This document shows positions 43,112-56,737 of a stretch of DNA of 64,000 nt, in pieces. How positions within the stretch are numbered: the first letter of the stretch is position 1; every line of letters starts with the position of its first letter. Under the pieces are notes generated by a model that did not search any database, was not told the origin of the DNA, and saw nothing but the letters and a program-made list of their open reading frames with translations. This stretch comes from an uncultured Desulfurococcales archaeon (GTDB lineage Archaea; Thermoproteota; Thermoprotei_A; EX4484-217-1), in contig CAZLZO010000002.1 in NCBI GenBank assembly GCA_964564025.1, positions 15,936 through 79,935 on the forward strand. Reading direction: 5' to 3'. Position numbers and translations under genes: made by a program.

Positions 43112-43873
43112 TCATGCTTGAGCTCTAGGTGCTACCCAGTAAACTAAGGTTCCTCCTCCCGGAACATCAAAGGTCACTTTCATAGGCATTGATGAACCGA
43201 ATTCTAAAGTTACTGTTTCAGAAGCAGCAATGGCCTTTAATGTTATTTCCAATAAGTCTATTCCATAAGTGGATCTGACTTCAGATTCCTCAACCATTAA
43301 GGATATTAACGGCCTGTCAAGTCTCATAATATTGTAGTATTCTTTTTGAGGAGTTATTGTTTTTGCTTCCAGCTTGTCGGAAGTCGCTATGAACTCTATT
43401 TCATCACCTACTATTTTTGCATCCTTAATTATGTTTTTGAAATCATCACTAACCATTCTAACTATTGCAGGAAGCTTCAGCTTAGGCTCAGGTAATTTCT
43501 CTATTACACCTTCCTTAAGCTGAACATAGAATGTTCTTTTATAGCCAAGTTTCTTATCAATAAACGTCATTCTTAACCTTCTATTCTCTTTTTCAAGGAC
43601 AAGCTCAACCATATCATTTCTTGAACCCCTTCTAGCTGTCCTATTGAATTCATCACTACTTACGATAAACGTTGTTTCTTCTGGGCACTCAAATTCGTCG
43701 AAAGCTAATGATGGAATATTTAATGATATCATAGTTGTTTTATCGGGACTCAATGTTTTAACAAATAAGCCATTCTCATTCACTGTAAATGGGATTTCAT
43801 CGGCAATTTTAGCTAATGTCTGGGCTATATACTTAAATTTCGACGCCGAAGGATAGAGTGCTCTAAAACTCAT
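43112..43873 (-). CDS. pcn: DNA polymerase sliding clamp (PCNA)
   Basis: 253 aa with the two-domain PCNA pattern: FVKTLSPDKTTMISLNIPSLAFDEF..., the interdomain loop and a C-terminal PIP-binding region. Confidence 0.9.
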   Translation of the reverse strand: MSFRALYPSASKFKYIAQTLAKIADEIPFTVNENGLFVKTLSPDKTTMISLNIPSLAFDEFECPEETTFIVSSDEFNRTARRGSRNDMVELVLEKENRRLRMTFIDKKLGYKRTFYVQLKEGVIEKLPEPKLKLPAIVRMVSDDFKNIIKDAKIVGDEIEFIATSDKLEAKTITPQKEYYNIMRLDRPLISLMVEESEVRSTYGIDLLEITLKAIAASETVTLEFGSSMPMKVTFDVPGGGTLVYWVAPRAQA

Positions 43874-43978: not shown

Positions 43979-44368
43979 ATGTCTAAGGAAATTACGTTAA
44001 AAGTTATGTTGGGAAACTACAAATATGTTGAGCTTCCTTTAGAGGATTCTGAAGAATTTTTACAAATACTTTCTAAAAGGTTTCCAAATAAAGATAGGGA
44101 TATTAAGGAGGTACTTAGGATCATACGTAATTTCGATGTATTTTACGAAATAGCTCGTAAGAAGTTTAAAAACTATATTCTAATACCTCATGATACAAGC
44201 GATATGCTTAAAAAAACGGTTCTCTTCGATAAAGTGAAGCTTCTTATTGGTGAAAATGGTAGAAAGAAAGTGGGTTTAATTTTTGACCGCTCAATTCCCC
44301 TTGAAAATGTTATGAAAGTGTTAGAGGAGTTAGGTTATAGTGTAAACGTTGTTAAAAGCGAACTGTAA
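43979..44368 (+). CDS. Hypothetical protein
   Basis: 129-aa ORF with GGAGG 10 nt upstream of the ATG. Confidence 0.4.
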   Translation: MSKEITLKVMLGNYKYVELPLEDSEEFLQILSKRFPNKDRDIKEVLRIIRNFDVFYEIARKKFKNYILIPHDTSDMLKKTVLFDKVKLLIGENGRKKVGLIFDRSIPLENVMKVLEELGYSVNVVKSEL

Positions 44369-44687: not shown

Positions 44688-46502
44688 TCAACTTGAAACA
44701 TCTATTCTAACTACGATAGGGTCATTCACTACACTATCTTTAATTATAGCATGAAACATCGGTAAATAGTATAATGCTTTTCTCACCATATCATATCTGT
44801 TATCAGTAACGAATCCGGCAAATGTTTTAGCTATATAATCTAAATTCTCCGGCTCTGAAAGTTTGAAAGATATTTTAGTGACTGCATTTGCAACTATGGA
44901 TTCATCGATGTCCAATGGTTGCTGAGTTATAACTACAAAGCCTATACCATATTTTCTACTTTCCATCATTAGTTTTGCTACAAGCGATGGTTCAACTCCC
45001 CTCCTGCATAGCCTATGAGCTTCATCTATTACTATGTAGTTTAGAAGTCTTCGTTTCTCTCCAGTAGCGTACATTTTGTGAGCTATTTTTCTAAGAACCG
45101 TTTCAGCGAGGATAGATTTAACGTAGTCTCCTGGCAAGTTGGCCATAGCTATTACACTTGGTTTTTCAAGAAGCTTTTGAAACTCTATTGTGGTGTTTCT
45201 AAATATAGTGATGGAGAGCGTTCTTAAATATGGCTTTAAACTTTCATATCTAGCTCTTTCAGCTGAAGTTCTCGCATATTCTATTCTTTTCTCAACAACC
45301 TTCAGTAATGTTTGAAAAGTTGGAGGAGTGTTATTCCAAGATTCCTCATCATCTATTAGTATTCCCTTTTCCGCATAAGCTTCTTCAATTAAGTCCTCAA
45401 GAACTGTTCTTTGGAGGTTTCCTAGCTTAAAAACTCTTTGCAGTGTATCAGCTACTTGAACTGTTCTCTCTCTTGGCGATGCACCATCAAGTTCTAAAGG
45501 GTTAATTGATATTTTAGATGCGTCTACAACTACACCATTAAGTTGTTTGATTAAATCTACGTATTCATTATGAGGATCAAGTATTAACGAAGGAATACTC
45601 CATGTAAGGTAGAGTTCTTTCACCAATTTTTTAGCTAAGCTAGACTTACCTGTGCCACTAGTTCCTGTGATTAATACATGGTAATTAACCTGCATATAAG
45701 GGTTAAAAGCGTACTCTTCATCCTCTATTCGCCAATACCATGAGGGTGATTTTGTTGCAGTTATTCTATTCTTTAACCACTCATTAACAGGTTTACCATA
45801 AGTTAACGATGCCACGAGTTTTCCTAAAACAATACCCTCTCTTACGACTTCTAGCCTCTTTCCTCTTGATATTTCCTTCGGCGGAATATGTATTGAATAG
45901 GGTATTAGTATCCATGAGAGAAGAGGCACTAAAATAGTTGCTTGACCTAATTCACGTATAAATAATGAGGAAATTAAGACTCCTGTTAAATATATTATTT
46001 CGTCAAGTAAAGTTAGTGGTCTTAAAATTATTAATAGTAATGAAAGAAGCATTATTATAAGTACCTTCTTAGGTTTTATTTCAATGTTAAAACTTCTCCT
46101 CTTGATGCTTTCTATGAGAAAATCTCCCTTCTTAATTATGAAGGTCCATGAATAGTACAGTGTTATGTAGGTTGCAAATATAGTTAGATAGGTTATAGGG
46201 TTTTTTATGAAGGAGTCTATTGAGAATACTAAATAGTATAGTGATGTGCTTCTCACTAAAAATGCTACGAAAAGCACGTACCTTTTTAAAATGTTCATTC
46301 CAAACGTTAATGCTAAGGTGCTTACGAAAGCCAGTGTTGGAGATTCTAAAAGCGTAGCTGTAATTAGTTGAAATGTTATTATCACCGTATAAAGAATTGG
46401 TACTATGATTAAAGAGCCAACATTACTTACTAAAGCTAACAATAGGAATAATGCTACGATGAAAACTAAGTTTACTACTAAGATAACTTTATTAATACGC
46501 AT
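44688..46502 (-). CDS. Membrane-anchored HerA/VirB4-like (DUF87) P-loop ATPase, a CedB-like paralog
   Basis: 5-6 N-terminal TM helices. Walker A GTSGTGKSS, the DUF87-type NPLE motif and Walker B IVIDEAHRL. 604 aa. Confidence 0.6.
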   Translation of the reverse strand: MRINKVILVVNLVFIVALFLLLALVSNVGSLIIVPILYTVIITFQLITATLLESPTLAFVSTLALTFGMNILKRYVLFVAFLVRSTSLYYLVFSIDSFIKNPITYLTIFATYITLYYSWTFIIKKGDFLIESIKRRSFNIEIKPKKVLIIMLLSLLLIILRPLTLLDEIIYLTGVLISSLFIRELGQATILVPLLSWILIPYSIHIPPKEISRGKRLEVVREGIVLGKLVASLTYGKPVNEWLKNRITATKSPSWYWRIEDEEYAFNPYMQVNYHVLITGTSGTGKSSLAKKLVKELYLTWSIPSLILDPHNEYVDLIKQLNGVVVDASKISINPLELDGASPRERTVQVADTLQRVFKLGNLQRTVLEDLIEEAYAEKGILIDDEESWNNTPPTFQTLLKVVEKRIEYARTSAERARYESLKPYLRTLSITIFRNTTIEFQKLLEKPSVIAMANLPGDYVKSILAETVLRKIAHKMYATGEKRRLLNYIVIDEAHRLCRRGVEPSLVAKLMMESRKYGIGFVVITQQPLDIDESIVANAVTKISFKLSEPENLDYIAKTFAGFVTDNRYDMVRKALYYLPMFHAIIKDSVVNDPIVVRIDVSS

Positions 46503-46588
46503 ACTCTACCATGTCCTAGATTAAATTTAAAAGTTATATTTAATTTTTAAGCTTAACTGGAATACTCACACTTAGGTTAAGTGAAATA

Positions 46589-49423
46589 ATGCTTAGCAAT
46601 AAAAACAAACATACTTCAAATGAAGAGAATGTGTTTAGCATACTAAATCCTAAACTCAAAAGTGTTATTCAAAAATATGGATATTTAGAGCCTACAAAAG
46701 TTCAGAGTAAAGCCATACCGCTCATACTCAAAGGCTATAATATATTAATTGTGGCACCGACAGGGGCAGGAAAAACTGAAGCAGCACTATTTCCCATATA
46801 CTCGAAAATTATTGAAGAGAACTTTGCAAATGGAATTCAAGCACTTTATATAACACCTCTTAGAGCCTTAAATAGAGATATTCTGGTAAGAATGGGGAAA
46901 ATAGCTAAAGACATAGGTTTAAATATAGCTGTAAGACATGGTGATACAACCTACTATTTTAGAAGAAAGATAGCAGAGAATCCGCCACACTTGCTAATAA
47001 CAACTCCTGAAACTCTTCACTACCTTCTGGTTCACGCTATTATGAGAAAAGTTCTTAAAAGTATTAAATGGGTTGTTGTTGATGAAGTAAACGAGTTAAT
47101 GGGTAGTAAGAGAGGCGTAATACTTTCAGTAGCTTTGGAAAGACTTGTTAAGCTCTGTGGAAGGGAATTTCAAAGAATAGGGCTTTCAGCGGTTATAGGA
47201 AATGTTGAAGCAGCTAAAAGGTTTTTAGGAGGACCTAGATATGTTGAAGTTGTTGAAGTATATTATCAGAAGCCATATGAGATTATTGTCGAAGTTCCTC
47301 AGCCTACAAGTGAGGATGAAATAATTGCTTTACGTGAAGGCATTTCACCTAGCACCATGGCTAGATTAAGAAGAATAGTTGAGATCCTTGAAAAGTCTAA
47401 ATCAGGTATAGTCTTCACCAACACAAGAGATTTGGCTGAGCTCTTATCCTCAAGATTAAAGAGAACATTCAATATTGATGTCGGAGTACATCATGGCAGC
47501 TTATCAAGAAATGTTAGATTAACTCTAGAATCAGAATTTAAACAAGGCATCATAAGATACGTGGTAGCTACATCATCTTTGGAATTAGGTATAGACGTGG
47601 GTGAAGTAGATGTAGTGATTCAGTATGGTTCTCCAAGACAGGCAACAAAGCTTCTACAAAGAATAGGTAGGTCTGGACATAGAGAAACTGAGAAATCGAA
47701 AGGCTATGTTATAGCCTTAGCTAACGTAGATGACGCATTAGAATCCCTTGTATTAGCAAGAAGAGTTATTGATAAAAATTTGGAAAGTGAAAGCACTTAT
47801 GAAAACCCGCTTGACGTTATAGTTTATGAAACTGCTGGATTGCTTCTTGAATATGGAGAGATCTCCGTAGACGAGGTCTTTAAGATATTGAGGAGATCTT
47901 TCTACTACAGGAAGTTAAGCTATGCTACTCTTATTGAAACATTAAATTTTGCTTCGGCGATAGGTGTCATTTCTTTTGACGGAAAAATATTAAGGAAAAC
48001 TAGGAGAACTAAGATTTACTATTATGATGTTTCAATGATACCTGATGTAAGGCATTTCTTAGTTAAAAATATTATAGACAACACTATAATAGGGCAGCTT
48101 GACGAAGATTTTGTGATTTCATCACTTAACGTAGGAGCTAAATTTTTGCTTTCAGGAAAGGTTTGGGAGACATTAGATTATGATGAAAAATACGTTTATG
48201 TTAAACCTGCTGAAGATTCTTGGGGTGCTCTTCCTAAATGGGAGGGTGAACTTATACCTGTTGATTATAAGGTTTCTAGGGAGGTAGGCGCTTTAAAACG
48301 TAGAATAATAGAGAAGGGACTCACTGTTCTCAGAAAATATCCGACTTCTCAATCTCTTCTCAATTTCATTGAAAAGCAAATTAAGGAACATTATTCTAAG
48401 ATGGGATGGATTCCTACAGATAGAGAGGTTGTAGTTGAGATAATTGGAGGCAAAAATGTTATTGTAAATTCACATTTAGGTAGTAAAGGAAATTTTGGCC
48501 TAATGCTGTTGCTTACATACTTTCTAAGAAAACGAGGAGTAAATGTTGTAAGCAAAAGTGATCCGTATAGAGTAGTTCTGATGAGCAACTCAATAGTGCA
48601 TTTTGAGGAAATAATTAATGACTTAATTAGCATTAACAATGAGGATTTAAAGTACTTACTAAGAGAGAATATTAAGAAGAGTAATGTGTTTAAATGGCGT
48701 TTGTACAACGTGGCCAAAAGGTTTGGAGCTATAAGGAAAGATGTTAGTGTAAAAAAGGTTTCAAACATTTTAGCATACTATGTTGATACACCTATAGGTT
48801 ATGAGGCATTTAATGAAATAATTGTTGATAAAATAGATTTAAATGCTATTTTCGAGTTCATTGACTCAATTAGAAAAGGTAGGGTTAAAGTGAAATTTGT
48901 TTACTTAGAAGATTATTCACCGCTAACTATGCAAGCCTTAACAACTTATTCTTACTATGATGTTTCAGTAAAGCTCACTCCCATGGGAGAAATAATAGAG
49001 TTATTTAAGCGCAGAGTTGTAGAAAAGCGGGTTAAGCTTGTGTGTTTAATGTGCGGTAGTGTTATAGACGAAGTTAAGATTGCTGATCTTCCAGACTATC
49101 CTAAGTGTAATATTTGCGGGTCAGGTTTTTTAACAATAACATCTACGGGGTCAAGAGACGTAGAAATTATTGTGCGCAAGATGCTGAGAAAGCTTAGACT
49201 AAATCCTGCTGAAAAAGCTATGTTAAGAGAAGAAAAGTTAAAGGCCGATCTTGTGTTAAGATTTGGTAAACCAGCTATAATTGCTCTTTCAACATTTGGT
49301 GTTGGATATAAAACTGCGGCGAGAATAGTTGGAAAGTTTTTTGAAAATGAGAGTGAATTTTACAAAGCTCTCATAGAAGCTGAAACATTATTTATTAGAA
49401 CAAGAAGATTCTGGAAAAGCTAA
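46589..49423 (+). CDS. lhr: Lhr-type SF2 DEVH-like helicase (second paralog)
   Basis: APTGAGKTEAA, ITPLRALN, VDEVNEL, then SAV and a C-terminal Lhr-core-like domain with a zinc ribbon (CLMCG...CNICG). 944 aa. Confidence 0.8.
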   Translation: MLSNKNKHTSNEENVFSILNPKLKSVIQKYGYLEPTKVQSKAIPLILKGYNILIVAPTGAGKTEAALFPIYSKIIEENFANGIQALYITPLRALNRDILVRMGKIAKDIGLNIAVRHGDTTYYFRRKIAENPPHLLITTPETLHYLLVHAIMRKVLKSIKWVVVDEVNELMGSKRGVILSVALERLVKLCGREFQRIGLSAVIGNVEAAKRFLGGPRYVEVVEVYYQKPYEIIVEVPQPTSEDEIIALREGISPSTMARLRRIVEILEKSKSGIVFTNTRDLAELLSSRLKRTFNIDVGVHHGSLSRNVRLTLESEFKQGIIRYVVATSSLELGIDVGEVDVVIQYGSPRQATKLLQRIGRSGHRETEKSKGYVIALANVDDALESLVLARRVIDKNLESESTYENPLDVIVYETAGLLLEYGEISVDEVFKILRRSFYYRKLSYATLIETLNFASAIGVISFDGKILRKTRRTKIYYYDVSMIPDVRHFLVKNIIDNTIIGQLDEDFVISSLNVGAKFLLSGKVWETLDYDEKYVYVKPAEDSWGALPKWEGELIPVDYKVSREVGALKRRIIEKGLTVLRKYPTSQSLLNFIEKQIKEHYSKMGWIPTDREVVVEIIGGKNVIVNSHLGSKGNFGLMLLLTYFLRKRGVNVVSKSDPYRVVLMSNSIVHFEEIINDLISINNEDLKYLLRENIKKSNVFKWRLYNVAKRFGAIRKDVSVKKVSNILAYYVDTPIGYEAFNEIIVDKIDLNAIFEFIDSIRKGRVKVKFVYLEDYSPLTMQALTTYSYYDVSVKLTPMGEIIELFKRRVVEKRVKLVCLMCGSVIDEVKIADLPDYPKCNICGSGFLTITSTGSRDVEIIVRKMLRKLRLNPAEKAMLREEKLKADLVLRFGKPAIIALSTFGVGYKTAARIVGKFFENESEFYKALIEAETLFIRTRRFWKS

Positions 49424-51421
49424 GTGTTTAGAGAAAAGCTTTGTTTTAAACATTAATTCTGCAAGCAATTTTGCAGTGTATTCTCTACTTCTTTTAGTCT
49501 TTCTTCTCCATGCATCGTATCTGTTAAAGATCATAGCTGAAACCAGCTTTTCCACCATAACGTCAGCTATAGGGCATACATCATTACATGCTCTACATTT
49601 AAGACATAGCAGCTCTTGGACTACTGGTTTTGCATTAATTACTTTGATTGCTCCGGAAGGACAAAGGGCTTCACAAGAACCACACTCCACACAATAATGC
49701 GCTCTATAGACAAGCTTTACTGCATCTAAAAACTCTTCAATCCATCTTTCATTAACTTGTGCTTTAACAAGTATTTCACCATTTCCTTTAAAAATATAGT
49801 GAGTTCTAGTTTCATCACTATATACTATTACTTCATCAGCATGTTTTTTAATGGCTTTCCCCAAAATAGCGAGAATTCTTAAGACTTTATCTAAGTCTAT
49901 TTTCTTGCTTAACTTTACCTTAGCTATGATAGAGTCTTCTTTTCCCTCTTTTTCAAAGGAATAGATCTTGGCCTCCACCCATTTTTCATAAGTGCTAATC
50001 CAATCGTAAGCGTTAAACTGCGTTTTTCTTGAGAGAACTTTCTTAGGTGCAGCAGGTCCAAGCCATCTCCATAAGCCTAGCGTTACCCATTCCTTAGGCG
50101 CATTTATTCTTTGAGCCCATTTATAAAGGAAACTCTCCCATTTATTCCATAAGTTAAGATGAGTTTTCTTAACTTCCTCAAATTCAGCTAATCTACTGGC
50201 AGGACACATAAAGCACCCTATTCTATCAAATCCTTTGAAGTATAATGGGTTAACATGTTTGGTAAGTTTCTCTTTAAATATGTAAAGCCATATTGAAAGC
50301 TGACTCCAATACTGTATGGGCGAAACACTTATTACCATAGGAACCCATTTGTTACGCCAAATTCTAGTACTCTTAGCTCTCTCAAGAGATTCGTATGCTC
50401 TCTGACCAACAACATTTAATGCGCCAAAAGGCCATTTTTTAAGCATTTTCTTAGCTAAAGGAACAAGTTTTGCAACTTTACAGCACCATCTGTAGTCCCT
50501 TGCTGGAGGCCCAAATGTATTCACGGTTTTCCAAAAAGCGTTTTCTGCATCAGCTATTTCAAGTTTTAATCCGTATTCTTCAGAAACTTTTAAAACAGTC
50601 TCTAAAGTTTCCGGAAGCTCTATGCCCGTATTATTGAAAAGTAGCGTTATTTCGCCAACACTATTTAGTGCTAAATGAAGTGATACTAAACTATCTTTAC
50701 CTCCGGAAAACGAGACAACAATAGGTTTCCTTATTTTTGAATCCATTTTTCTAAGAAAAGCTTTCGCTTCTTCAACTTGCCTCTCTAACTTATCAATATT
50801 TCCCTCAATTACTTCATTTATTGTTGCTGGTTTCTCTGATGTTTCATAAATAAACTTCTGTCTATATTTCTTAATTACTCGAATTTTTCCGTTTCGAAGT
50901 ACAGCACCTAAACCTAATGGTTCTCCATTAAGATTCGTTATGATAACATATTGGCTCTCATTTATGCTTTGTTTTCTGAAGGGCAATATCTCGTTCTCTT
51001 TAATATTGCTTTTAACAGCTACTGTTTCTACTTCATTTCCCTCTAGTATTTTGAGAGCACTATAATATGATGGTCTAAACTCCCACTTTAAAGTGAAAGG
51101 ATTAAACAATAGTATTCCAGCGTTATTGCCATTAATTACCATTTCTTTAGCATCATCTATGTGAGTTGTTTTGTTTAGTAGAATTATTTTTGAGGAATTA
51201 GCTATTCTTTCAAAACCTCTTTCTGTACCGAATTTTTCTTTAAACGCTTCCTTTGCTATTTCTATATCTCTTGGAAAAGCTATTCTTGCATCTGCCGGTT
51301 CTCTAAGTTTAACTTCTATACCTTCACCTCCACATTTGTAACATTTGCTACTGACAAGTGGGATGTTGCAGTTAGGACACCAATATACTTTAGCTGTTTT
51401 CGGCCAATGCTTTTTCAGCAT
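49388..51421 (-). CDS. Multidomain PP-loop protein: N-terminal zinc ribbon, PAPS reductase/FAD synthetase-like ATP pyrophosphatase domain, C-terminal 2x[4Fe-4S] ferredoxin domain
   Basis: CPNCN...CYKCG at the N-terminus, PP-loop SFSGGKDS, YRWCC, and the ferredoxin motifs CVECGSCEALCP plus CLKCRACNDVCP. 677 aa. Confidence 0.65.
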   Translation of the reverse strand: MLKKHWPKTAKVYWCPNCNIPLVSSKCYKCGGEGIEVKLREPADARIAFPRDIEIAKEAFKEKFGTERGFERIANSSKIILLNKTTHIDDAKEMVINGNNAGILLFNPFTLKWEFRPSYYSALKILEGNEVETVAVKSNIKENEILPFRKQSINESQYVIITNLNGEPLGLGAVLRNGKIRVIKKYRQKFIYETSEKPATINEVIEGNIDKLERQVEEAKAFLRKMDSKIRKPIVVSFSGGKDSLVSLHLALNSVGEITLLFNNTGIELPETLETVLKVSEEYGLKLEIADAENAFWKTVNTFGPPARDYRWCCKVAKLVPLAKKMLKKWPFGALNVVGQRAYESLERAKSTRIWRNKWVPMVISVSPIQYWSQLSIWLYIFKEKLTKHVNPLYFKGFDRIGCFMCPASRLAEFEEVKKTHLNLWNKWESFLYKWAQRINAPKEWVTLGLWRWLGPAAPKKVLSRKTQFNAYDWISTYEKWVEAKIYSFEKEGKEDSIIAKVKLSKKIDLDKVLRILAILGKAIKKHADEVIVYSDETRTHYIFKGNGEILVKAQVNERWIEEFLDAVKLVYRAHYCVECGSCEALCPSGAIKVINAKPVVQELLCLKCRACNDVCPIADVMVEKLVSAMIFNRYDAWRRKTKRSREYTAKLLAELMFKTKLFSKHLAFPESSCSNK

Positions 51422-51427
51422 GGTTTC

Positions 51428-52138
51428 TTACTCTTTTTCATACTTTTCTCTCTTTTTCACATAGTCTTCGTAGGTACCTATAATTTTTGCTGGTATGCCA
51501 GCAACTACTGTATGAGGTGGTACGTTTTTCGTAACTACGGCTCCTGCAGCTACTACTGCTTTTTCACCTACCTCTATTCCTGCAATTAATGTTGCATTTG
51601 CCCCTATTACTGCTCCATCATGTATTTTAACGCCTATTAGACGTCTACTTGGTGGATACTTATCGTTAGTTATTATGACCCGAGGTCCAATGAATACGTT
51701 GTTTCCAATTATTGTTTCAGGAGGAATATAAACTGATGATTGAATACTGACATTTTTACCTATTAAAACGTGACCGTCAATTATTGTCCCAGTTCCTATT
51801 TTAGTGTTTTCACCTATTCTCGTATTTTCCCTTATTAAGACATTGTGTCCTGTTTCAACATTGTTGCCTATGAAGGTGTCCTCATATAATATACTATTTG
51901 ATCTGATAATGCAGTTTGCCCCTATGATTGCTCCAGAACTTACTTCATCATAGATTTCAAAATTTGCATTTCCCTTACTCTTTATTATTTTAAGTATTTT
52001 GGCCTTAGTAGGGTAACCCACTATGACTCCGAAACCCAATATGGTATTGTCCTTAATGATGGAGCGGCCTAGCACTATAACGTTTCCTTCAACAATAACC
52101 CTCTCCCCTATTTTCGCCTTATTAGAAATATAAGCCAT
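51428..52138 (-). CDS. Left-handed beta-helix (hexapeptide-repeat) acyltransferase
   Basis: Tandem [LIV]-G-x4 hexapeptide repeats throughout. Start chosen at M20 of the ORF, where a TATA-like TTATATTA lies about 20-27 nt upstream (leaderless). The longer ORF extends to 52195. Confidence 0.65.
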   Translation of the reverse strand: MAYISNKAKIGERVIVEGNVIVLGRSIIKDNTILGFGVIVGYPTKAKILKIIKSKGNANFEIYDEVSSGAIIGANCIIRSNSILYEDTFIGNNVETGHNVLIRENTRIGENTKIGTGTIIDGHVLIGKNVSIQSSVYIPPETIIGNNVFIGPRVIITNDKYPPSRRLIGVKIHDGAVIGANATLIAGIEVGEKAVVAAGAVVTKNVPPHTVVAGIPAKIIGTYEDYVKKREKYEKE

Positions 52139-52248
52139 TTTGACCACTAATGATATGTAATATAAGGACATATTAATTACATTACTGTTTAGCATTTCAC
52201 AAATACTGTGCTCTAATCGAGTAAATGAAACAATTATATATTTTTAAC

Positions 52249-52418: not shown

Positions 52419-52628
52419 ATGCCTGTAGTATATGTTTGTAAAAACTGTGGTTTTGAATTATATAGGTTTGAACGTGTAGGTCAAGATTACTATGGTTTAC
52501 CTACACCTAGCGAGATTATGAACTGGTATAGTGGAGTTTGTCCAAAGTGTAACGCTAAATTGGAGAGACCAAGCTTAAATAGGATTAAAATTGCCTTTAG
52601 AGGGAAAATTATTAGCTTAAAACAGTAA
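52419..52628 (+). CDS. Small zinc-ribbon protein
   Basis: CKNCG...x24...CPKCN. 69 aa. Confidence 0.4.
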   Translation: MPVVYVCKNCGFELYRFERVGQDYYGLPTPSEIMNWYSGVCPKCNAKLERPSLNRIKIAFRGKIISLKQ

Positions 52629-52860
52629 GTCTGGGACCAAAAATTTCCTTTAAATTTCTTTCATCAAGTCTTTCTCCATTTCCCTCTCCTTTGCTATAAC
52701 TATTTATTAACATTATTATTGCTGTTCTTATTGCTTCGCTTCTACTGGAAAAGTATCCATTCTTTACTAATTCATCAAGTCTATCAAGAAGTTCGCGTCT
52801 TACTTTAAAAGTTACGACAACTGTATCGTTAAGACATAATACACTCAAAAGAATTATCAC
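52612..52860 (-). CDS. Ribbon-helix-helix (CopG-like) DNA-binding protein
   Basis: The segment VVVTFKVRRELLDRLDELVKNGYFSSRSEAIRTAI is a classic RHH (beta-strand then two helices). 82 aa. Confidence 0.5.
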   Translation of the reverse strand: MIILLSVLCLNDTVVVTFKVRRELLDRLDELVKNGYFSSRSEAIRTAIIMLINSYSKGEGNGERLDERNLKEIFGPRLTVLS

Positions 52861-52917: not shown

Positions 52918-53211
52918 TTGCTTTTTAAAAGCCCAAAAAAGCCTTTTAAAAAGCAACATATTCTTAGGGGGATAGTTGTGGATATAGAGGCTCTAATTAA
53001 TGATTTAACTAATAGGGTAGTTATTGCAGCATGGGCACTCTTCATGCTTTCATGGGCGATTGGATGGCTTCTGAAGGGTTCACCTATTCCAATATATAGA
53101 GTAAAGAGGTTCGGACAAGATATAGTTGAAGATGCTATTTTAGGCGCATTTTGGCTAGCTGTGGGAACAAGTATTTTCGCTTTAATAAAGTACATAGCTT
53201 CATCAACTTAG
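52918..53211 (+). CDS. Small 2-TM membrane protein (CedA1-like position)
   Basis: 97 aa with two hydrophobic helices. First gene of the membrane/ATPase cluster. Confidence 0.4.
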   Translation: MLFKSPKKPFKKQHILRGIVVDIEALINDLTNRVVIAAWALFMLSWAIGWLLKGSPIPIYRVKRFGQDIVEDAILGAFWLAVGTSIFALIKYIASST

Positions 53212-53245: not shown

Positions 53246-54694
53246 ATGGATGAGTTTCTAATAATCGCTTATTCATTAGCTATATTGACTTATTACTTAG
53301 GCGTACTTATATACTTGTTACCTATACCTGTTTGGAGCGTTAAGAAGTGGGCGCCAGCTTTAATTTATGATTCGTTTGCAGTAACGATTTTGGTTTTATT
53401 GTTTACATCAATAATTGAAGCTACATCCTATTTTGGAGGTATTTTGGGGGTCAGTTGGGACTTCTACTTTAACTGGCTTGTTGAAAGAATAGCAGTTTTG
53501 GGTTCATTTATTTCATTACTAATAAGTGTTTCTTTAGCTATATCCCAAGCCGGAGGAAGAGCTTTAGTTACGTCTTTCTTAGGACCAATAACTAGTATAG
53601 CCACATATACGCTCATAGTCATGGAGTTCTTCTTCGTTTTAGGATTAGTGTTTAAAGAATATTTCGCAAAAATACTTGCCTTCGGAATTTTACTTTATGC
53701 AGTACCATTTAGATTAGCTAGAAGTGCAGGAGCATCATTAATAGCTCTGTCTATAGTTTTTACAATAGCTCTTCCGCTTCTCCCAACGTTTGTGAATGTT
53801 ATGAGCGTGAGCGAAAGTAACCCTCTTACAAACATGAATATAAGTGAGCCACTTAAGCCTAAAGAGGATCTTGGAGTATTTTTTGCTAAAGGAATAGTTA
53901 AAGATATTACAGGAGAGCCTATACCATATATCAAAACGGAATGGTTTCTTAAAGAAAATAGCATAGATCCCATAGCTACATATTATACTGACGAAAATGG
54001 CTTTTATAATGCCGGAAGACCCTTCGGAGGGTTGCCTGCAAAAGTAAATGGATTTTACGTTAAATTTAGCTATTTAGGTATTAGCATAAGCTCTATGAAT
54101 GTTTCAATAAACGAATTCTTCTACAACCCCTATTTGGATCCCAATGCAGACTATGTACATGACTTTACATTAAACAACGTTATTTACTTTGGCCGCACAG
54201 TTCTTTTAATACTACAGAGTGAAGTAAAGAATGCTGAAGTTAATAAACAAGGAAATACGTACGTTCTTAACATAGTTTTAAATGGACCACAAGAAGCCAT
54301 AATCGCCTATGTTCCTGAAGTCGCAAAAATAACAAAATTGAAGGTAAATTATAGCGAAATTGAATTTACTAATAAAAGTTATATTTGGAATAATGTAAAT
54401 GTTTCAACTATAAACTTTCACTTGCCCAAAGGATCTACGGTTATAGAAGTATCCTATGTTATAGTTGGTGAAGAAAACATCCAACTTGTAGATAAAGGGT
54501 ATTTTAGCGATATAGATAACACTTTAAACTCTAGCATTAATGTTCAAAATTTAGGTGAAGCCATAGGTAAAGTGTTCTTTCAATGGATAATATTGCCTGT
54601 AACTTACTTAACAATTCTTATTTCGATAACTTACTCTTTTGCATATACTCTTGGAGGTAGGAAATTACGCTTACCGATAAGAGATAGGGTGTAA
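53246..54694 (+). CDS. Polytopic membrane protein (CedA-like 6-7 TM core) with a sequon-rich extracellular domain of about 250 aa and a C-terminal TM anchor
   Basis: 6-7 TM helices in the first 210 aa. This is followed by a beta-rich domain with at least 6 N-x-S/T sequons (NMNIS, NVSIN, NYSEI, NKSYI, NVSTI, NSSIN) and a terminal TM helix. Confidence 0.5.
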   Translation: MDEFLIIAYSLAILTYYLGVLIYLLPIPVWSVKKWAPALIYDSFAVTILVLLFTSIIEATSYFGGILGVSWDFYFNWLVERIAVLGSFISLLISVSLAISQAGGRALVTSFLGPITSIATYTLIVMEFFFVLGLVFKEYFAKILAFGILLYAVPFRLARSAGASLIALSIVFTIALPLLPTFVNVMSVSESNPLTNMNISEPLKPKEDLGVFFAKGIVKDITGEPIPYIKTEWFLKENSIDPIATYYTDENGFYNAGRPFGGLPAKVNGFYVKFSYLGISISSMNVSINEFFYNPYLDPNADYVHDFTLNNVIYFGRTVLLILQSEVKNAEVNKQGNTYVLNIVLNGPQEAIIAYVPEVAKITKLKVNYSEIEFTNKSYIWNNVNVSTINFHLPKGSTVIEVSYVIVGEENIQLVDKGYFSDIDNTLNSSINVQNLGEAIGKVFFQWIILPVTYLTILISITYSFAYTLGGRKLRLPIRDRV

Positions 54695-54702
54695 GGTGGT
54701 TA

Positions 54703-54885
54703 ATGGTGAATCCTTTTAATTTTAAAACAATGCTAATATTATACCTAGTTAACGTACTTTACGTAACTTACATTATCGTAAAGAACAGTGCTAACCTAAA
54801 TACCGTGTTAACTGTTTTACTAGTAATACTTGTTGTTATTCCTATGATTGTACTCATCATATATCATAGAGACGTTTTAAAATAG
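54703..54885 (+). CDS. Tiny 2-TM membrane protein (CedA2-like position)
   Basis: 60 aa with two TM helices. The gaps to both neighbouring genes are 9-11 nt. Confidence 0.4.
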   Translation: MVNPFNFKTMLILYLVNVLYVTYIIVKNSANLNTVLTVLLVILVVIPMIVLIIYHRDVLK

Positions 54886-54895
54886 GTGGTAGGCT

Positions 54896-56737
54896 ATGGA
54901 CTATAATGAAAAAATACCAGTGCTTATAATTGTTATTGGAGCATTTGTTTTAGCTTACGTTTTCTTGAAGGATTTTGTTGCATTAGAGCATTACATAGCC
55001 TTATTCTTACTGCTCATTTTTGCTTATAATATACCGTTGGTTTTTCCAAAGCTTACATCGAAAATAATACCTCGTAAGCTAGAGTTTAGCGAAGCAAACA
55101 TGATGGTTAAAGGTAACATCTTAGTTGTGAAAAAAGATAAAACTGTAAGTGGCTTAGCGGTATATGTGGTTGATGATGTTCCTTATAGTTACAAAGATGT
55201 AACCTCAGATTTCCTTATACAACAAATCAGATCTTTTACAGGCTTTATAACAGCAACGGAAAGTGATGTTTCAATAGTTCTATTAAAGAAGAAAGCAAAT
55301 ACATCATCTTATGTTAAGAATATTGAGAGACAGCTCATAAATTACAAGATAATGGTGGCAACAGATCCTGCAAATCCTCAGATTTTAAAGAAACTTAGAA
55401 GATTAGAAAAAATATATGATAGGATAGTTAAAGGCGAAAAGCCCATTAGCATAAAGTACTATATAGTAGTTAAAGCACATGCTTCATCGGAAAGGGGATT
55501 GATAAAGGCTATTCAGGAAAGATCACGTACAGTAATAACGTCATTTAAAGCCTCAATGGGTTTTGATGTTAGAAAAGCAACTGAGGACGAGGTCTTAGAA
55601 GCAATAAGTCTAGGTATTCTTAAAGAAACTAAACATAAGATTACGTTGGAGTCCGACGTAGGCTTCATGATGCCCATAGGATATGTTAAAAGGCCTAAGG
55701 TTTCCGGTAAGGGTATTTATCTAGGTGAAGACATAGACTATGGTACACCAGTTTTTTACGATTTCGAAAAATACTTAACGAAACATATAGTGGTAATAGG
55801 GCCTACAGGTAGGGGTAAAACAACATTCCTTTACACAATAGCGAAAAGGGCCATAGATGAATATGAAATTCCAGTATGGATCTTTGACTTAAGAGGAGAG
55901 TTTATTGGCTTAAAGTCTACAAGTGCTTTTGAAATAATAGATCCTGAGAGAAACAACATTAACATATTATACACGTGGTTTACGAGTCCTAGAATAAGGG
56001 CAAAGCAAATAATTGAGCTTATTAAAAGCATAGCATCATTAACTTCCAAGGAGGAATACTTACTATATATGTCACTTATAAAAACGTACGAATCAACAAA
56101 CAATCCTAGCTTCGAATACTTAATGTCAACAATAGCTGAGATCTCTAAGAACTATGGTGATAAGGATGTTGAGTTTAGTTTACTAACAAAACTTGAGTCT
56201 TTAAAATCAAAGATATTCTTCAACGGTAACGTATATGCCCTTAACTTTAAGAGGCCTCTAATATTTCTTCTACATAGGTTGCCTGAGGAGTATCGTAAAT
56301 TATACACTTTAGCATTGCTTCAAATCTTAGCTAACTATATTTTAACGCTAACGCCAACAAATACTATACGTTGCTTAGTAATACTTGATGAAGCATGGCG
56401 CTTTATGGATACACGTTCTGGAGCAAAAATTATTAAGTCCTTAGTAAAGGAGGGACGAGGCTACGGACTTGCAGTGGCTTTAGCTTCCCAAGATATATCT
56501 GATTTTCCAAAGGAAATTTTAGATAATGCTGGAACAATAGCTGTTTTTGGGTCAAATAGTAAAGATTACATTGAAAGCGTAAGCAAGTTTATGAAACTAA
56601 ATGAGACAGAAAAGGAGAGAATGTCATGGTTAAGAACGGGAGAGGTCCTTATTCGAATAATTGGAGACCCCAGACCATTATGGGTTAAAATACGGCCCGA
56701 ACTCGTGGAGACTCAAGAGAAACAAATAAAAAAGTAA
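54896..56737 (+). CDS. Membrane-anchored HerA/VirB4-like ATPase (CedB-like DNA translocation ATPase)
   Basis: Two N-terminal TM helices, Walker A GPTGRGKTT, an IIDPE motif and Walker B VILDEAWRF. 613 aa. Final gene of the operon. Confidence 0.65.
   Translation: MDYNEKIPVLIIVIGAFVLAYVFLKDFVALEHYIALFLLLIFAYNIPLVFPKLTSKIIPRKLEFSEANMMVKGNILVVKKDKTVSGLAVYVVDDVPYSYKDVTSDFLIQQIRSFTGFITATESDVSIVLLKKKANTSSYVKNIERQLINYKIMVATDPANPQILKKLRRLEKIYDRIVKGEKPISIKYYIVVKAHASSERGLIKAIQERSRTVITSFKASMGFDVRKATEDEVLEAISLGILKETKHKITLESDVGFMMPIGYVKRPKVSGKGIYLGEDIDYGTPVFYDFEKYLTKHIVVIGPTGRGKTTFLYTIAKRAIDEYEIPVWIFDLRGEFIGLKSTSAFEIIDPERNNINILYTWFTSPRIRAKQIIELIKSIASLTSKEEYLLYMSLIKTYESTNNPSFEYLMSTIAEISKNYGDKDVEFSLLTKLESLKSKIFFNGNVYALNFKRPLIFLLHRLPEEYRKLYTLALLQILANYILTLTPTNTIRCLVILDEAWRFMDTRSGAKIIKSLVKEGRGYGLAVALASQDISDFPKEILDNAGTIAVFGSNSKDYIESVSKFMKLNETEKERMSWLRTGEVLIRIIGDPRPLWVKIRPELVETQEKQIKK

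What the first reader, a model, noticed from the sequence alone, without database searches (positions are those of the whole stretch)
44688..46502. Second, orphan membrane-anchored HerA/VirB4-like ATPase paralog, divergent from an Lhr helicase
This 604-aa protein has 5-6 N-terminal TM helices plus a DUF87-type ATPase (GTSGTGKSS, NPLE, IVIDEAHRL). It is a paralog of the CedB-like gene 8 kb downstream but lacks adjacent membrane partners. It is divergently transcribed from an Lhr-type helicase across an 87-bp AT-rich promoter region. Two such translocase-like ATPases in one locus suggest either a second DNA or protein transport machine, or subfunctionalisation such as import versus export.
Basis: inference. 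Interest (0 to 1): 0.55.

Follow-up and report, generated by a model that had tools for sequence, protein, structure and literature searches.

The report
Lhr-linked membrane DNA-pump-like ATPase
This gene encodes a membrane-embedded, DNA-pump-like ATPase from an uncharacterised family that heat-loving crenarchaea keep back-to-back with the aLhr1 helicase, and often beside the Ced DNA-import genes, so it is a candidate missing part of archaeal DNA exchange.

Summary
Window 44688-46502(-) is a real 604-aa gene under purifying selection (dN/dS 0.09). It has a polytopic N-terminal membrane domain and an intact FtsK-HerA-superfamily (DUF87) ATPase. It lies 86 bp from a divergent Lhr helicase and 8.4 kb from a CedA1/CedA/small-TM/CedB cluster.

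It is neither CedB nor CedD. A genuine CedD, recovered through published qPCR primers, scores 37 bits against it, versus at least 160 bits within the CedD clade. CedD and members of this family coexist in the same Sulfolobales genomes.

It is also not an orphan. In all 14 related loci examined, from Saccharolobus islandicus to Hyperthermus butylicus, the ortholog sits divergently next to the aLhr1-type helicase and upstream of rpo13. In H. butylicus and two MAG contigs the Ced operon directly follows Lhr.

The S. islandicus ortholog (M164_1755, arCOG00285, annotated 'HerA helicase') is non-essential by Tn-seq. I found no functional study of it.

Best reading: a third, undescribed membrane DNA-translocase lineage working with aLhr1, possibly in Ced-type DNA exchange. 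Function and direction of transport are untested inference.

The parts
44688..46502 (-). Target gene: 604-aa membrane-embedded FtsK-HerA-superfamily ATPase, ortholog of S. islandicus M164_1755 (arCOG00285)
   Evidence: ORF and translation. DUF87 59 bits. 92-27% identical full-length homologs. dN/dS 0.094.
45858..46502 (-). N-terminal polytopic membrane domain (aa 1-215): 8 predicted long helices. Family-conserved residues D127, G174, S196-W197 and P201.
44688..45695 (-). Cytoplasmic ATPase domain (aa ~270-604), preceded by a beta-hairpin (aa 224-266). VirB4/DndH/HerA-like fold.
   Evidence: Foldseek against PDB: DndH C-domain 7es4 E = 6e-18, HerA 4d2i, VirB4 4ag5. Profile against PDB sequences: 7es4 at 104 bits. 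Invariant catalytic motifs.
45639..45665 (-). Walker A motif, GTSGTGKSS (aa 280-288)
   Evidence: G280, S282, G283, G285, K286 and S287 are invariant in 19 homologs.
45009..45035 (-). Walker B motif, IVIDEAHRL (aa 490-498)
   Evidence: E494 is invariant and D493 is at least 90% conserved.
46503..46588 (.). 86-bp, 74% A+T intergenic region shared with the divergent Lhr gene; presumed bidirectional archaeal promoter
   Evidence: The equivalent spacer is 34-119 bp in the 13 related loci measured (H. butylicus from the gene coordinates). Promoter function is inferred, not shown.
46589..49423 (+). aLhr1-type Lhr helicase (944 aa), the conserved divergent partner
   Evidence: Pfam DEAD, Helicase_C, WH_Lhr and DEAD_assoc. 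It is closer to the ATPase-adjacent Lhr of the 9 other loci compared (446-909 bits) than to the window's second Lhr at 9374-12223 (350 bits). SSO0394/Saci_0814 is aLhr1 (PMC10003305).
44377..44625 (-). rpo13 (RNA polymerase subunit 13), 62 bp downstream on the same strand; conserved downstream neighbour
   Evidence: Pfam RNA_pol_Rpo13 26.9 bits against cut-off 25. A small ORF occupies this position in every related locus, with an Rpo13 Pfam hit in most of them.
43112..43873 (-). PCNA subunit, a loosely conserved member of the neighbourhood
   Evidence: Pfam PCNA_N and PCNA_C. A PCNA gene lies within about 2.5 kb in all related loci with sequence on that side except L013.
52918..53211 (+). CedA1 pilin-like gene (likely start at ATG 52978, by comparison with the 77-aa gene called in L001)
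   Evidence: NCBIfam Ced_CedA1 120.9 bits, above the cut-off of 100.
53246..54694 (+). CedA-like polytopic channel protein (482 aa, with a long C-terminal extension)
   Evidence: NCBIfam Ced_CedA is the best hit at 168.7 bits, below the cut-off of 330; aa 3-193 match.
54703..54885 (+). 60-aa two-TM ORF in the CedA2 position
   Evidence: Small ORFs of 57-63 aa sit in the same position in L006, L007, L014, L015 and L018. No family hit.
54896..56737 (+). CedB-like membrane ATPase (613 aa)
   Evidence: NCBIfam DNA_import_CedB 276.8 bits over the full length (5-586 of 590), below the cut-off of 700.

Best explanation
The gene encodes a chromosomal, vertically inherited member of a distinct, uncharacterised lineage of the FtsK-HerA superfamily. 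In the arCOG scheme this lineage is arCOG00285, annotated 'HerA helicase'. The S. islandicus M.16.4 ortholog is M164_1755.

The protein has an ~200-aa domain of about 8 transmembrane helices. A beta-hairpin follows, then a catalytically intact VirB4/DndH/HerA-like ATPase.

By analogy with every characterised relative, it most likely forms a membrane-anchored hexameric ring that uses ATP to move DNA at or through the cytoplasmic membrane (inferred).

Its conserved partner is the aLhr1 helicase, transcribed divergently from a short shared spacer. I infer that the two are co-regulated and act on the same DNA substrate. aLhr1 would unwind or strip the DNA that the membrane motor hands over or receives.

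In several Desulfurococcales the Ced operon (cedA1-cedA-small TM-cedB) abuts this pair. In this window it is 3.5 kb beyond Lhr. The likeliest process is therefore Ced-type intercellular chromosomal DNA exchange, with this protein as a third motor alongside CedB and CedD.

Whether it acts in import, in the still unassigned export step, or in DNA handling unrelated to Ced is not known.
For: Identity (shown):
- DUF87 scores above its cut-off.
- The Walker A, Walker B and ESRKYG motifs are invariant across 19 homologs.
- The AF2 model has pLDDT 84.8. Its ATPase domain matches DndH-C, HerA and VirB4.
- dN/dS is 0.094.

A distinct lineage (shown):
- NCBIfam CedD scores 62 bits against a cut-off of 600. 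CedB scores 44 against 700, HerA 48 against 800 and VirB4 50 against 643.
- A bona fide CedD (771.7 bits against the model) gives 37.5 bits against the target. It gives at least 160 bits within its own clade, which includes Desulfurococcales members.
- CedD and CedB each form clades with 100% bootstrap support that exclude the target.
- S. islandicus, S. tengchongensis and Sulfurisphaera javensis carry both CedD and a member of this family.

Family breadth (shown): the exhaustive profile search found 455 cluster representatives at E < 1e-30. About 85 of the top 150 have the polytopic N-terminus followed by a P-loop at roughly aa 200-330.

Conserved context (shown):
- A divergent aLhr1 ortholog is present in all 14 related loci examined, and a downstream small ORF in the rpo13 position is present in every one. 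Lhr orthology was confirmed for 9 of them.
- The Ced operon lies immediately downstream of Lhr in H. butylicus, L014 and L015.
- It lies within about 2-6 kb of Lhr in L013, L001/L002, L006, L007 and this window.

Literature:
- The export ATPase of Sulfolobales DNA exchange is stated to be unknown (PMC11868833).
- The S. islandicus ortholog and its Lhr neighbour are non-essential by Tn-seq, as expected for an accessory DNA-exchange or repair function (PMC6249222 supplement).
Against: - No experiment links any family member to DNA transfer.
- In Sulfolobales the ced genes are dispersed, yet the ATPase-Lhr-rpo13-pcna block persists. The primary linkage is therefore with Lhr and the replication/transcription genes, not with Ced.
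- I did not find the Lhr-linked ATPase in two published damage-response lists: the S. islandicus table of genes induced more than 30-fold by NQO (which includes cedA, cedB and cedD) and the S. acidocaldarius TFB3-UV iModulon list. This was judged from annotations and predicted locus numbers. Its exact locus tags in those strains were not determined.
- L008 and L010 have no Ced genes within 10 kb.
- Conserved gene order among slowly rearranging hyperthermophile chromosomes could be partly historical rather than functional.
- The membrane topology could not be resolved. Two strongly basic loops are separated by an odd number of predicted helices.
- The N-terminal domain has no recognisable homolog.
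Confidence: 0.45

Rival explanations
1. It is an FtsK-like chromosome-handling translocase: a membrane-anchored DNA pump that clears or resolves chromosomal DNA at the division site or supports replication-associated repair. On this reading it works with aLhr1 and PCNA and is unrelated to Ced DNA exchange.
For: - The architecture (polytopic N-terminus plus FtsK-HerA motor) parallels FtsK/SpoIIIE.
- The gene is single-copy and widely conserved in the core chromosome, next to pcna1 and rpo13 in Sulfolobales, where the ced genes lie elsewhere.
- One distant member (P0147) carries a precomputed Pfam FtsK_SpoIIIE hit.
- The promoter of the neighbouring Lhr gene is listed as a target of the cell-cycle regulator aCcr1 (PMC9976892).
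- I did not find it in the published DNA-damage-induced gene lists.
Against: - The target has no FtsK_SpoIIIE hit. I saw no FtsK-like linker, and there is no room for a C-terminal gamma domain, because the alignment to relatives runs to the C-terminus.
- The S. islandicus ortholog is non-essential with normal Tn-seq recovery.
- Direct adjacency of the Ced operon in Pyrodictiaceae-type loci is not explained by this reading.
Confidence: 0.2
2. It is part of a DNA-modification or defence-type module (BREX type 4 or Dnd/Ssp-like). On this reading a DndH-like ATPase, a BrxHI-like Lhr helicase and a BrxP/DndC-like PAPS-reductase protein act together on DNA.
For: PADLOC hits:
- Target against DndH: 101 bits.
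- Lhr against BrxHI: 309 bits.
- The 677-aa PAPS-reductase/4Fe-4S protein (49388-51421-) against BrxP: 169.5 bits, plus weaker SspD and DndC hits.

The best solved-structure match is the DndH C-domain. The PAPS-reductase gene flanks Lhr in the window and in L001, L006, L007, L008, L010 and L013.
Against: - The hits are at domain level only. DndH matches only aa 272-528 of the target, against part of a ~1,700-position model.
- No large ORF with the features I would expect of BrxC/PglY, BrxL, PglZ, BrxA/B or DndF/G was seen among the window ORFs that were scanned. This is from memory of BREX/Dnd composition, and not every ORF was scanned.
- The PAPS-reductase gene is absent from the H. butylicus, L014, L015 and Sulfolobales loci, where the ATPase-Lhr pair persists.
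- Conserved position, vertical inheritance and a core-gene neighbourhood are atypical of defence islands.
- No relatives were found in viral contigs.
Confidence: 0.08
3. It is simply the Desulfurococcales ortholog of CedD, the VirD4-like import ATPase described in 2025, and so an already known Ced component.
For: - CedD is the top NCBIfam hit.
- Published work says CedD co-occurs with CedB in most Desulfurococcales and Acidilobales (PMC11868833 and PMC11823120).
- The gene lies near a Ced cluster.
Against: - The CedD model scores 62 bits against a cut-off of 600, and only over the ATPase core.
- A true CedD gives 37.5 bits against the target, but 160-186 bits against CedD-clade proteins from Staphylothermus and other non-Sulfolobales sources.
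- The CedD clade has 100% bootstrap support and excludes the target.
- S. islandicus, S. tengchongensis and Sulfurisphaera javensis each have both a CedD and a member of this family.
- The architecture differs: about 8 TM helices and no soluble N-terminal domain here, against a TM segment plus an N-terminal domain in CedD.
- CedD lies near tfb3, not near Lhr.
Confidence: 0.03
4. It is a VirB4/TraG-type ATPase of an integrated conjugative plasmid or virus.
For: - Weak Pfam hits to AAA_10, TrwB_AAD_bind and P-loop_TraG.
- tblastn against plasmids hits mostly conjugative plasmids (220 of 358 records).
Against: - The plasmid matches cover at most 58% of the protein at no more than 29% identity. 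None is full length.
- None was found in IMG/VR viral contigs.
- The gene sits among core genes (PCNA, rpo13, Lhr, PriL, reverse gyrase, MetRS), with conserved synteny across orders (and the locus calls).
- G+C composition is uniform across the window.
Confidence: 0.02
5. It translocates something other than DNA, for example proteins as the FtsK-like EssC/EccC ATPases of type VII secretion do, and the Lhr pairing is only a historical accident of gene order.
For: - The FtsK-HerA superfamily includes protein translocases (general knowledge).
- The membrane domain is novel, so the substrate is not constrained by homology.
Against: - The nearest structural and sequence relatives (DndH, HerA, VirB4, CedB, CedD) all act on or with DNA.
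- The conserved divergent pairing with a nucleic-acid helicase holds across at least two orders (locus calls).
- I saw no candidate secretion-substrate genes nearby.
Confidence: 0.1

Closest known systems
[quoted passage not shown]
   Same: It is a membrane-associated FtsK-HerA-superfamily ATPase of Thermoprotei and the best-scoring NCBIfam model. Both are non-CedB motors found in Ced-carrying organisms.
   Different: It is a separate clade (62 bits against a cut-off of 600; 37 bits by phmmer against at least 160 within CedD). It coexists with CedD in the same Sulfolobales genomes. It has about 8 TM helices and no soluble N-terminal domain. It neighbours aLhr1 and rpo13, not tfb3. I did not find it in the published damage-induced gene lists.
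CedB (Saci_0748), the VirB4/HerA-like Ced import ATPase
   Same: It is a distant paralog (23% identity over the ATPase domain). A CedB-like gene lies 8.4 kb away in this window, and within about 5 kb in H. butylicus-type loci.
   Different: The CedB model scores 44 bits against a cut-off of 700. CedB has a short N-terminal hydrophobic segment (aa 4-54) followed by a ~230-aa region before the ATPase. The target replaces this with a polytopic membrane domain.
Bacterial T4SS ATPases: VirB4, and the coupling proteins VirD4/TrwB/TraG
   Same: The ATPase fold matches the VirB4 C-terminal domain (4ag5; TM-score 0.72-0.74 normalised to the target chain). Membrane anchoring plus a DNA-transfer gene context recalls a coupling protein.
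   Different: All VirB4 and TraC models fall far below their cut-offs. There is no VirB4 N-terminal domain. The TrwB_AAD_bind hit covers only the P-loop region (21 bits). There is no relaxase or other conjugation gene set, and the gene is chromosomal and vertically inherited.
FtsK/SpoIIIE
   Same: The overall plan is the same: a polytopic N-terminal membrane anchor followed by a FtsK-HerA-type motor.
   Different: The target has no FtsK_SpoIIIE Pfam match, and I saw no long linker or gamma domain. The membrane domains are not detectably related.
DndH/DptH C-terminal ATPase domain (PDB 7es4) of the DndFGH restriction system
   Same: It is the best solved-structure match by fold (E = 6e-18) and by profile (104 bits).
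   Different: DndH is a ~1,700-aa soluble defence protein. Only its C-terminal ATPase domain aligns, and no DndF or DndG partners were seen.
HerA (the HerA-NurA end-resection helicase); arCOG00285 carries the label 'HerA helicase'
   Same: Same superfamily, with HerA structures among the top fold matches.
   Different: HerA models score 40-48 bits against cut-offs of 800-970. No N-terminal HAS-barrel domain is present, and there is no NurA/Mre11/Rad50 neighbourhood. The target is membrane-embedded.

Membership tests
FtsK-HerA superfamily (DUF87-type P-loop ATPases) | Pfam DUF87 (HerA central domain) above the gathering score | tested here: met
   59 bits against 23.2, aa 272-470.
FtsK-HerA superfamily (DUF87-type P-loop ATPases) | Intact Walker A and Walker B motifs and conserved downstream Arg/Lys and Gln residues | tested here: met
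   K286, E494, R516-K517 and Q527 are invariant in 19 homologs. Assigning them as Arg-finger or sensor residues is inference.
FtsK-HerA superfamily (DUF87-type P-loop ATPases) | ATPase fold superposes on solved members | tested here: met
   Foldseek: 7es4 E = 6e-18, 4d2i E = 4e-13, 4ag5 E = 5e-13.
FtsK-HerA superfamily (DUF87-type P-loop ATPases) | Hexameric ring with a central substrate pore | not testable with these tools
   Only monomer prediction was available.
CedD (NCBIfam NF053655) | Whole-protein score at or above the curated cut-off (600 bits), over the full length | tested here: not met
   62.3 bits, matching only profile positions 219-478. A true CedD scores 771.7 bits.
CedD (NCBIfam NF053655) | Groups with the CedD clade in a phylogeny or by score | tested here: not met
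   The CedD clade has 100% bootstrap support and excludes the target. phmmer gives 37.5 bits against at least 160 within the clade.
CedD (NCBIfam NF053655) | One ortholog per genome, i.e. no separate CedD beside it | tested here: not met
   S. tengchongensis has P0250 and P0023. Sulfurisphaera javensis has P0282 and P0022. S. islandicus has P0246 and P0032.
CedD (NCBIfam NF053655) | Required for DNA import; induced by DNA damage | not testable with these tools
   I did not find the Sulfolobales ortholog in the published induced-gene lists. Its locus tags in those strains were not confirmed.
CedB (NCBIfam NF041017) | Score at or above 700 bits over the full length | tested here: not met
   44.4 bits over the ATPase core only. 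The neighbouring CedB-like gene scores 276.8 bits over its full length.
HerA proper (NF040937 / NF040819) | Score at or above 800/970 bits; N-terminal HAS-barrel; NurA partner | tested here: not met
   48.5 and 39.5 bits. The N-terminus is a membrane domain. No nurA, mre11 or rad50 gene was seen among the neighbours scanned.
VirB4 (TIGR00929) / TraC | Score at or above the cut-off; VirB4 N-terminal domain | tested here: not met
   49.6 bits against 643; TraC 55 against 567. There is no soluble N-terminal domain.
Type IV coupling protein (VirD4/TrwB/TraG) | TrwB_AAD_bind or TraG-D_C domains matched over their length; two N-terminal TM helices; relaxosome context | tested here: not met
   PF10412 scores 21.3 bits against 20.5, but the only aligned stretch (aa 272-316, around the P-loop) does not pass on its own. 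TraG-D_C scores 17.2, below its cut-off of 22. No relaxase was seen.
FtsK/SpoIIIE | PF01580 match; gamma domain | tested here: not met
   The target has no PF01580 hit at E <= 0.01. A distant family member, P0147, does have a precomputed hit.
arCOG00285 ('HerA helicase'), as represented by S. islandicus M164_1755 | Orthology to M164_1755: full-length similarity plus the same Lhr/rpo13/pcna1 context | tested here: met
   P0032 (S. islandicus, 572 aa; its cluster includes the M.16.4 protein ACR42359) scores 569 bits over the full length against the family profile. The context is identical and matches the M164_1753-1756 rows. That P0032 corresponds to M164_1755 is inferred from this gene order. 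The arCOG model itself was not run.
BREX type 4 / Dnd defence systems | Presence of the other core genes (BrxC/PglY, BrxL, BrxA/B; or DndF/G) | tested here: not met
   There are only domain-level PADLOC hits to DndH, BrxHI and BrxP. No other components were seen among the ORFs scanned. The core-gene list is from memory.

The most novel reading that the evidence does not exclude
This family is the missing donor-side motor of crenarchaeal chromosomal DNA exchange. On this reading a membrane-embedded translocase, together with aLhr1 acting as the unwinding helicase in place of a relaxase, feeds DNA out through the Ced/Ups junction. That would make it a relaxase-free, chromosomally encoded conjugation export module. 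It would be ancestrally encoded as one supercluster (ATPase <> Lhr-cedA1-cedA-cedA2-like-cedB), as still seen in Hyperthermus butylicus.
Probability: 0.15. Interest if true: 0.85.

Novelty: new variant of a known kind. Interest (0 to 1): 0.6.

Why it matters
Ced/Ups-mediated DNA exchange is the best-studied archaeal counterpart of conjugation. Its export side, and the enzyme that prepares the transferred strand, are explicitly unknown (PMC11868833).

This is a conserved, non-essential, membrane-embedded DNA-pump-like ATPase. It stays wedged against the aLhr1 helicase from Sulfolobales to Pyrodictiaceae and directly abuts the Ced operon in some lineages. That makes it a concrete candidate that can be tested genetically in model organisms with existing assays.

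It also gives aLhr1 its first conserved gene-context clue. A published survey reported no conserved context for aLhr1 (PMC8301817).

Finally, it corrects a database label: arCOG00285 'HerA helicase' hides a separate family.

Tried and rejected
1. CedD orthology was rejected. I recovered a true CedD through the qPCR primers in PMC11868833, then compared it by homolog search, phmmer and a neighbour-joining tree.
2. The N-terminal membrane domain as a fused CedA/VirB6-like channel was rejected: hhalign probability 0.1%.
4. The genome-contig scan with the family alignment was wasted.
5. The afdb50 fold library was unavailable.
6. Mobile-element origin was rejected: no viral-contig relatives and only partial ATPase-domain matches on plasmids.
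7. The sigma-70 promoter scan is irrelevant for an archaeon and was not enriched.
8. Literature searches for SSO0395, Saci_0815, arCOG00285 and protein accessions found no study of the family. The UV-transcriptome supplement was not held.
9. Membrane topology from the positive-inside rule was inconsistent. Two basic loops are separated by three predicted helices, so I left it unresolved.
10. My neighbour-joining tree is crude. It is unrooted, uses saturated distances, and does not recover the target family as a single clade. It supports only the exclusion of the target from the CedB and CedD clades.
Full report
**The observation**

The ORF at 44688-46502(-) starts with ATG and encodes 604 aa. 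It carries GTSGTGKSS (aa 280-288), NPLE (334-337) and IVIDEAHRL (490-498). It matches Pfam DUF87 at 59 bits against a gathering score of 23.2.

The first ~205 residues are strongly hydrophobic. An AlphaFold2 model built on 19 homologs has mean pLDDT 84.8. It predicts eight long helices and one short amphipathic helix (residues 2-204), a low-confidence linker (207-219), a beta-hairpin (224-266), and then an alpha/beta ATPase domain.

Against a 92%-identical homolog from a hydrothermal metagenome, dN/dS is 0.094. It is 0.19 for the membrane domain and 0.06 for the ATPase. This is a functional gene.

The Lhr-type helicase at 46589-49423(+) has DEAD, Helicase_C, WH_Lhr and DEAD_assoc domains. It is divergent across 86 bp of 74% A+T.

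The window is ordinary chromosome of a hyperthermophilic crenarchaeon. It holds reverse gyrase, XPB, PCNA, PriL, rpo13 and MetRS, at a uniform ~35% G+C.

**The Ced cluster in the window**

Downstream lies a genuine Ced cluster:
- CedA1 at 52918/52978-53211 scores 120.9 bits, above its cut-off of 100.
- A CedA-like gene is at 53246-54694.
- A 60-aa two-TM ORF is at 54703-54885.
- A CedB-like gene at 54896-56737 scores 276.8 bits over its full length, which is below the Sulfolobales-tuned cut-off of 700.

The target and the CedB-like protein share 23% identity over the ATPase domain only (E = 9e-17). They are distant paralogs.

**It is neither CedB nor CedD**

NCBIfam's best model for the target is CedD, the second Ced ATPase described in 2025 (PMC11868833, PMC11823120). 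The score is only 62 bits against a cut-off of 600, and only over the ATPase core.

To test this properly I needed a real CedD. The published cedD qPCR primer found two metagenome contigs. One carries a 541-aa ORF (L017:4864-6489) that encodes both primer peptides. A TFB-like zinc-ribbon ORF that I take to be tfb3 (not scanned) lies close by. The 541-aa ORF scores 771.7 bits over the full length of the CedD model.

Results with this CedD:
- Its homologs form a coherent family. It includes Sulfolobales CedDs and 344-574-aa proteins from Staphylothermus, Desulfurococcaceae AG1 and Thermoprotei MAGs at 160-186 bits.
- The target scores 37.5 bits, similar to the CedB-like gene's 54.5 bits.
- In a bootstrapped neighbour-joining tree of ATPase domains, CedD and CedB each form 100%-supported clades that exclude the target. 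Mean distances are 1.34 within the target family, 2.37 to CedD and 2.33 to CedB.
- Sulfolobus tengchongensis (P0250 and P0023), Sulfurisphaera javensis (P0282 and P0022) and Saccharolobus islandicus (P0246 and P0032) each encode both a CedD and a member of the target's family.

The target therefore represents a third lineage.

**The family**

An exhaustive profile search of 1.84 billion cluster representatives found 455 hits at E < 1e-30. About 85 of the top 150 share the architecture: a polytopic N-terminus with the P-loop at roughly aa 200-330.

Named members come from S. islandicus and S. shibatae, Acidianus, Metallosphaera, Sulfolobales HS-7, Hyperthermus butylicus, Desulfurococcaceae MEX13E-LK6-19, and Desulfurococcales, Acidilobales and Thermoprotei MAGs.

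In S. islandicus M.16.4 the gene is M164_1755, classed as arCOG00285 'HerA helicase' and non-essential by Tn-seq. That P0032 corresponds to this locus tag is inferred from the matching gene order. It is flanked by rpo13 (M164_1754), pcna1 (M164_1753) and the non-essential Lhr-like helicase M164_1756 (PMC6249222 supplement).

I found no paper that studies it. The two CedD papers and the Ced-pilus paper do not mention it or Lhr.

**Gene context is the main new result**

I examined 14 related loci spanning 92% to ~27% identity. In every one, the gene is divergent from an Lhr helicase and followed on its own strand by a small ORF in the rpo13 position, which carries an Rpo13 Pfam hit in most of them. 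The spacer to Lhr is 34-119 bp in the 13 loci measured. The loci are:

| Locus | Source |
|---|---|
| L001, L002, L003 | metagenome contigs carrying the 92%-identical homolog P0001 |
| L006 | JGI metagenome contig |
| L007 | ENA metagenome contig |
| L008 | ENA metagenome contig |
| L010 | NCBI assembly (GCA_054031975.1) |
| L013 | NCBI assembly (GCA_054007735.1) |
| L014 | ENA metagenome contig |
| L015 | JGI metagenome contig |
| L009 | Sulfurisphaera javensis |
| L011 | Sulfolobus tengchongensis |
| L012 | S. islandicus |
| L018 | Hyperthermus butylicus |

Spacer sequences are; the H. butylicus spacer comes from the gene coordinates.

The adjacent Lhr is a single orthologous group. Scores run from 446 to 909 bits across the nine loci compared, against 350 bits to the window's second Lhr paralog at 9374-12223. 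This group corresponds to aLhr1 (SSO0394/Saci_0814; PMC10003305).

The flanks outside Lhr-ATPase-rpo13(-pcna) differ between Sulfolobales and Desulfurococcales. This small block is what is conserved.

The position of the Ced operon varies:
- In H. butylicus, L014 and L015, cedA1-cedA-small ORF-cedB follows directly downstream of Lhr on the same strand.
- In L013, one gene separates them.
- In the window, L001/L002, L006 and L007, a PAPS-reductase/hexapeptide-transferase pair and small ORFs separate them.
- In L008, L010 and most Sulfolobales loci, Ced is not nearby.

The simplest reading is an ancestral supercluster, ATPase <> Lhr-Ced, that has been progressively broken up. A published survey using TIGRFAM annotation reported no conserved context for aLhr1 (PMC8301817). 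It could easily have missed this gene, which carries no specific family annotation.

**How it most likely works**

Shown:
- Catalytic motifs are intact and invariant.
- The ATPase domain's closest solved relatives are the DndH C-domain, HerA and the VirB4 C-domain.
- The protein is anchored by its own large membrane domain.
- It has a conserved divergent partnership with a nucleic-acid helicase.
- Ced genes are frequently nearby.

Inferred:
- It forms a membrane-bound hexameric ring that translocates DNA.
- It is co-regulated with aLhr1, which would act on the same substrate.
- The process is Ced-type intercellular DNA exchange.
- The role could be the still unassigned export ATPase (PMC11868833 states 'unknown ATPases') or a further import or hand-over step.

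Against the Ced link:
- The ced genes are dispersed in Sulfolobales while the Lhr pairing persists.
- I did not find the ortholog in the table of genes induced more than 30-fold by NQO or in the TFB3-UV iModulon list. Constitutive expression would not be incompatible with a donor-side role.

I put about 0.9 on the identity statement and about 0.45 on DNA translocation coupled to aLhr1. Ced involvement, within that, gets about 0.3, and a specific export role about 0.15.

**Rivals**

- *FtsK-like chromosome handling.* The architecture is analogous, the gene is in the core genome next to pcna and rpo13, and the Lhr promoter is listed as an aCcr1 target. This remains plausible at about 0.2. It does not explain Ced adjacency, and the gene is dispensable.
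- *BREX-4/Dnd-like modification module.* PADLOC suggests this, with DndH at 101 bits for the target, BrxHI at 309 bits for Lhr and BrxP at 169.5 bits for the PAPS-reductase protein. The hits are at domain level, the other core components were not seen, and the PAPS-reductase gene is missing from many loci that keep the pair.
- *Mobile-element origin.* Excluded by synteny and by the lack of full-length relatives on plasmids or viral contigs.

**Dead ends**

- The N-terminal domain shows no homology to CedA/VirB6 and no specific fold match.
- Its topology is unresolved.
The closest labelled relative is 'Desulfurococcales archaeon ex4484_217_2' at 67% identity.

**Verdict**

The 'orphan paralog' framing is wrong in an interesting direction. 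This is a conserved, uncharacterised third membrane-motor family of Thermoprotei, tied to aLhr1 and, in part of its range, to the Ced operon. It is a new variant within a known superfamily, with a directly testable functional hypothesis in genetically tractable Sulfolobales.

Noticed in passing
window 49388-51421 (-) and 51428-52195 (-): A 677-aa PAPS-reductase plus 4Fe-4S protein scores 463.6 bits on NCBIfam PRK13795.1-2, above the cut-off of 456. It also gives PADLOC BrxP 169.5 bits and weaker SspD and DndC hits. Its 3' end overlaps the Lhr 3' end tail-to-tail by 36 bp, and a hexapeptide acyltransferase gene precedes it. The same pair flanks Lhr in L001, L006, L007, L008 and L010 (the PAPS-reductase gene alone in L013). 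It is absent from the H. butylicus, L014, L015 and Sulfolobales loci. Function unknown.
   Followed up: partly
window 9374-12223 (+): A second Lhr-type helicase paralog (949 aa; DEAD, Helicase_C, WH_Lhr, DEAD_assoc). It is less similar to the ATPase-linked Lhr (350 bits) than that Lhr is to its orthologs in other orders.
   Followed up: partly
window 43979-44368 (+): A 129-aa ORF with no family hit. An ORF of 126-130 aa sits in the same place, just downstream of the rpo13-position ORF and on the opposite strand, in the Desulfurococcales-type loci with sequence there (L001, L002, L006, L007, L008, L010, L013, L014, L015, L018). It is absent from the Sulfolobales loci.
   Followed up: no
window 54703-54885 (+): A 60-aa two-TM ORF lies between the CedA-like and CedB-like genes. 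Small ORFs of 57-63 aa occupy the same position in L006, L007, L014, L015 and L018 (the gene called in L001 was not among them). It sits in the CedA2 position but has no model hit.
   Followed up: partly
window 53246-54694 (+): The CedA-like protein is 482 aa, whereas the Sulfolobales CedA model has 259 positions. Only aa 3-193 match. There is a ~290-aa C-terminal extension ending in another hydrophobic helix (aa 443-466), possibly an extracellular domain.
   Followed up: no
window 52612-52860 (-): A ribbon-helix-helix (RHH_1) gene lies just upstream of the Ced cluster. An RHH gene in the corresponding position is present in L001, L006 and L007, and in L008 where Ced is absent. It could be a local regulator. 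In Sulfolobales, the RHH cell-cycle regulator aCcr1 is reported to target the Lhr promoter (PMC9976892).
   Followed up: no
window 6442-9009 (+): A radical-SAM protein interrupted by an intein with a LAGLIDADG homing-endonuclease domain.
   Followed up: no
proteins P0049 and P0351 (not in the window): A target-family member (P0049, 610 aa) and a CedD-clade protein (P0351, 574 aa) both list an NCBI contig of exactly 197,810 bp. They are probably on the same contig. If so, the two families coexist in a further genome whose taxon I could not determine. I could not verify this because the look-ups were exhausted.
   Followed up: no
proteins P0107, P0116, P0125 and others: Dozens of soluble relatives score 210-255 bits against the family profile. 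They have the ATPase at the N-terminus and a ~200-aa C-terminal extension, with no membrane domain. Their source organisms are unknown. They may be the closest non-membrane sister group.
   Followed up: no
L012 10001-12025 (S. islandicus); also L009 and L011: In Sulfolobales, the small ORF immediately downstream of the ATPase gene (rpo13 in S. islandicus) starts 0-1 nt after the ATPase stop codon or overlaps it. This suggests co-transcription of the membrane ATPase with an RNA polymerase subunit, followed closely by pcna1.
   Followed up: no
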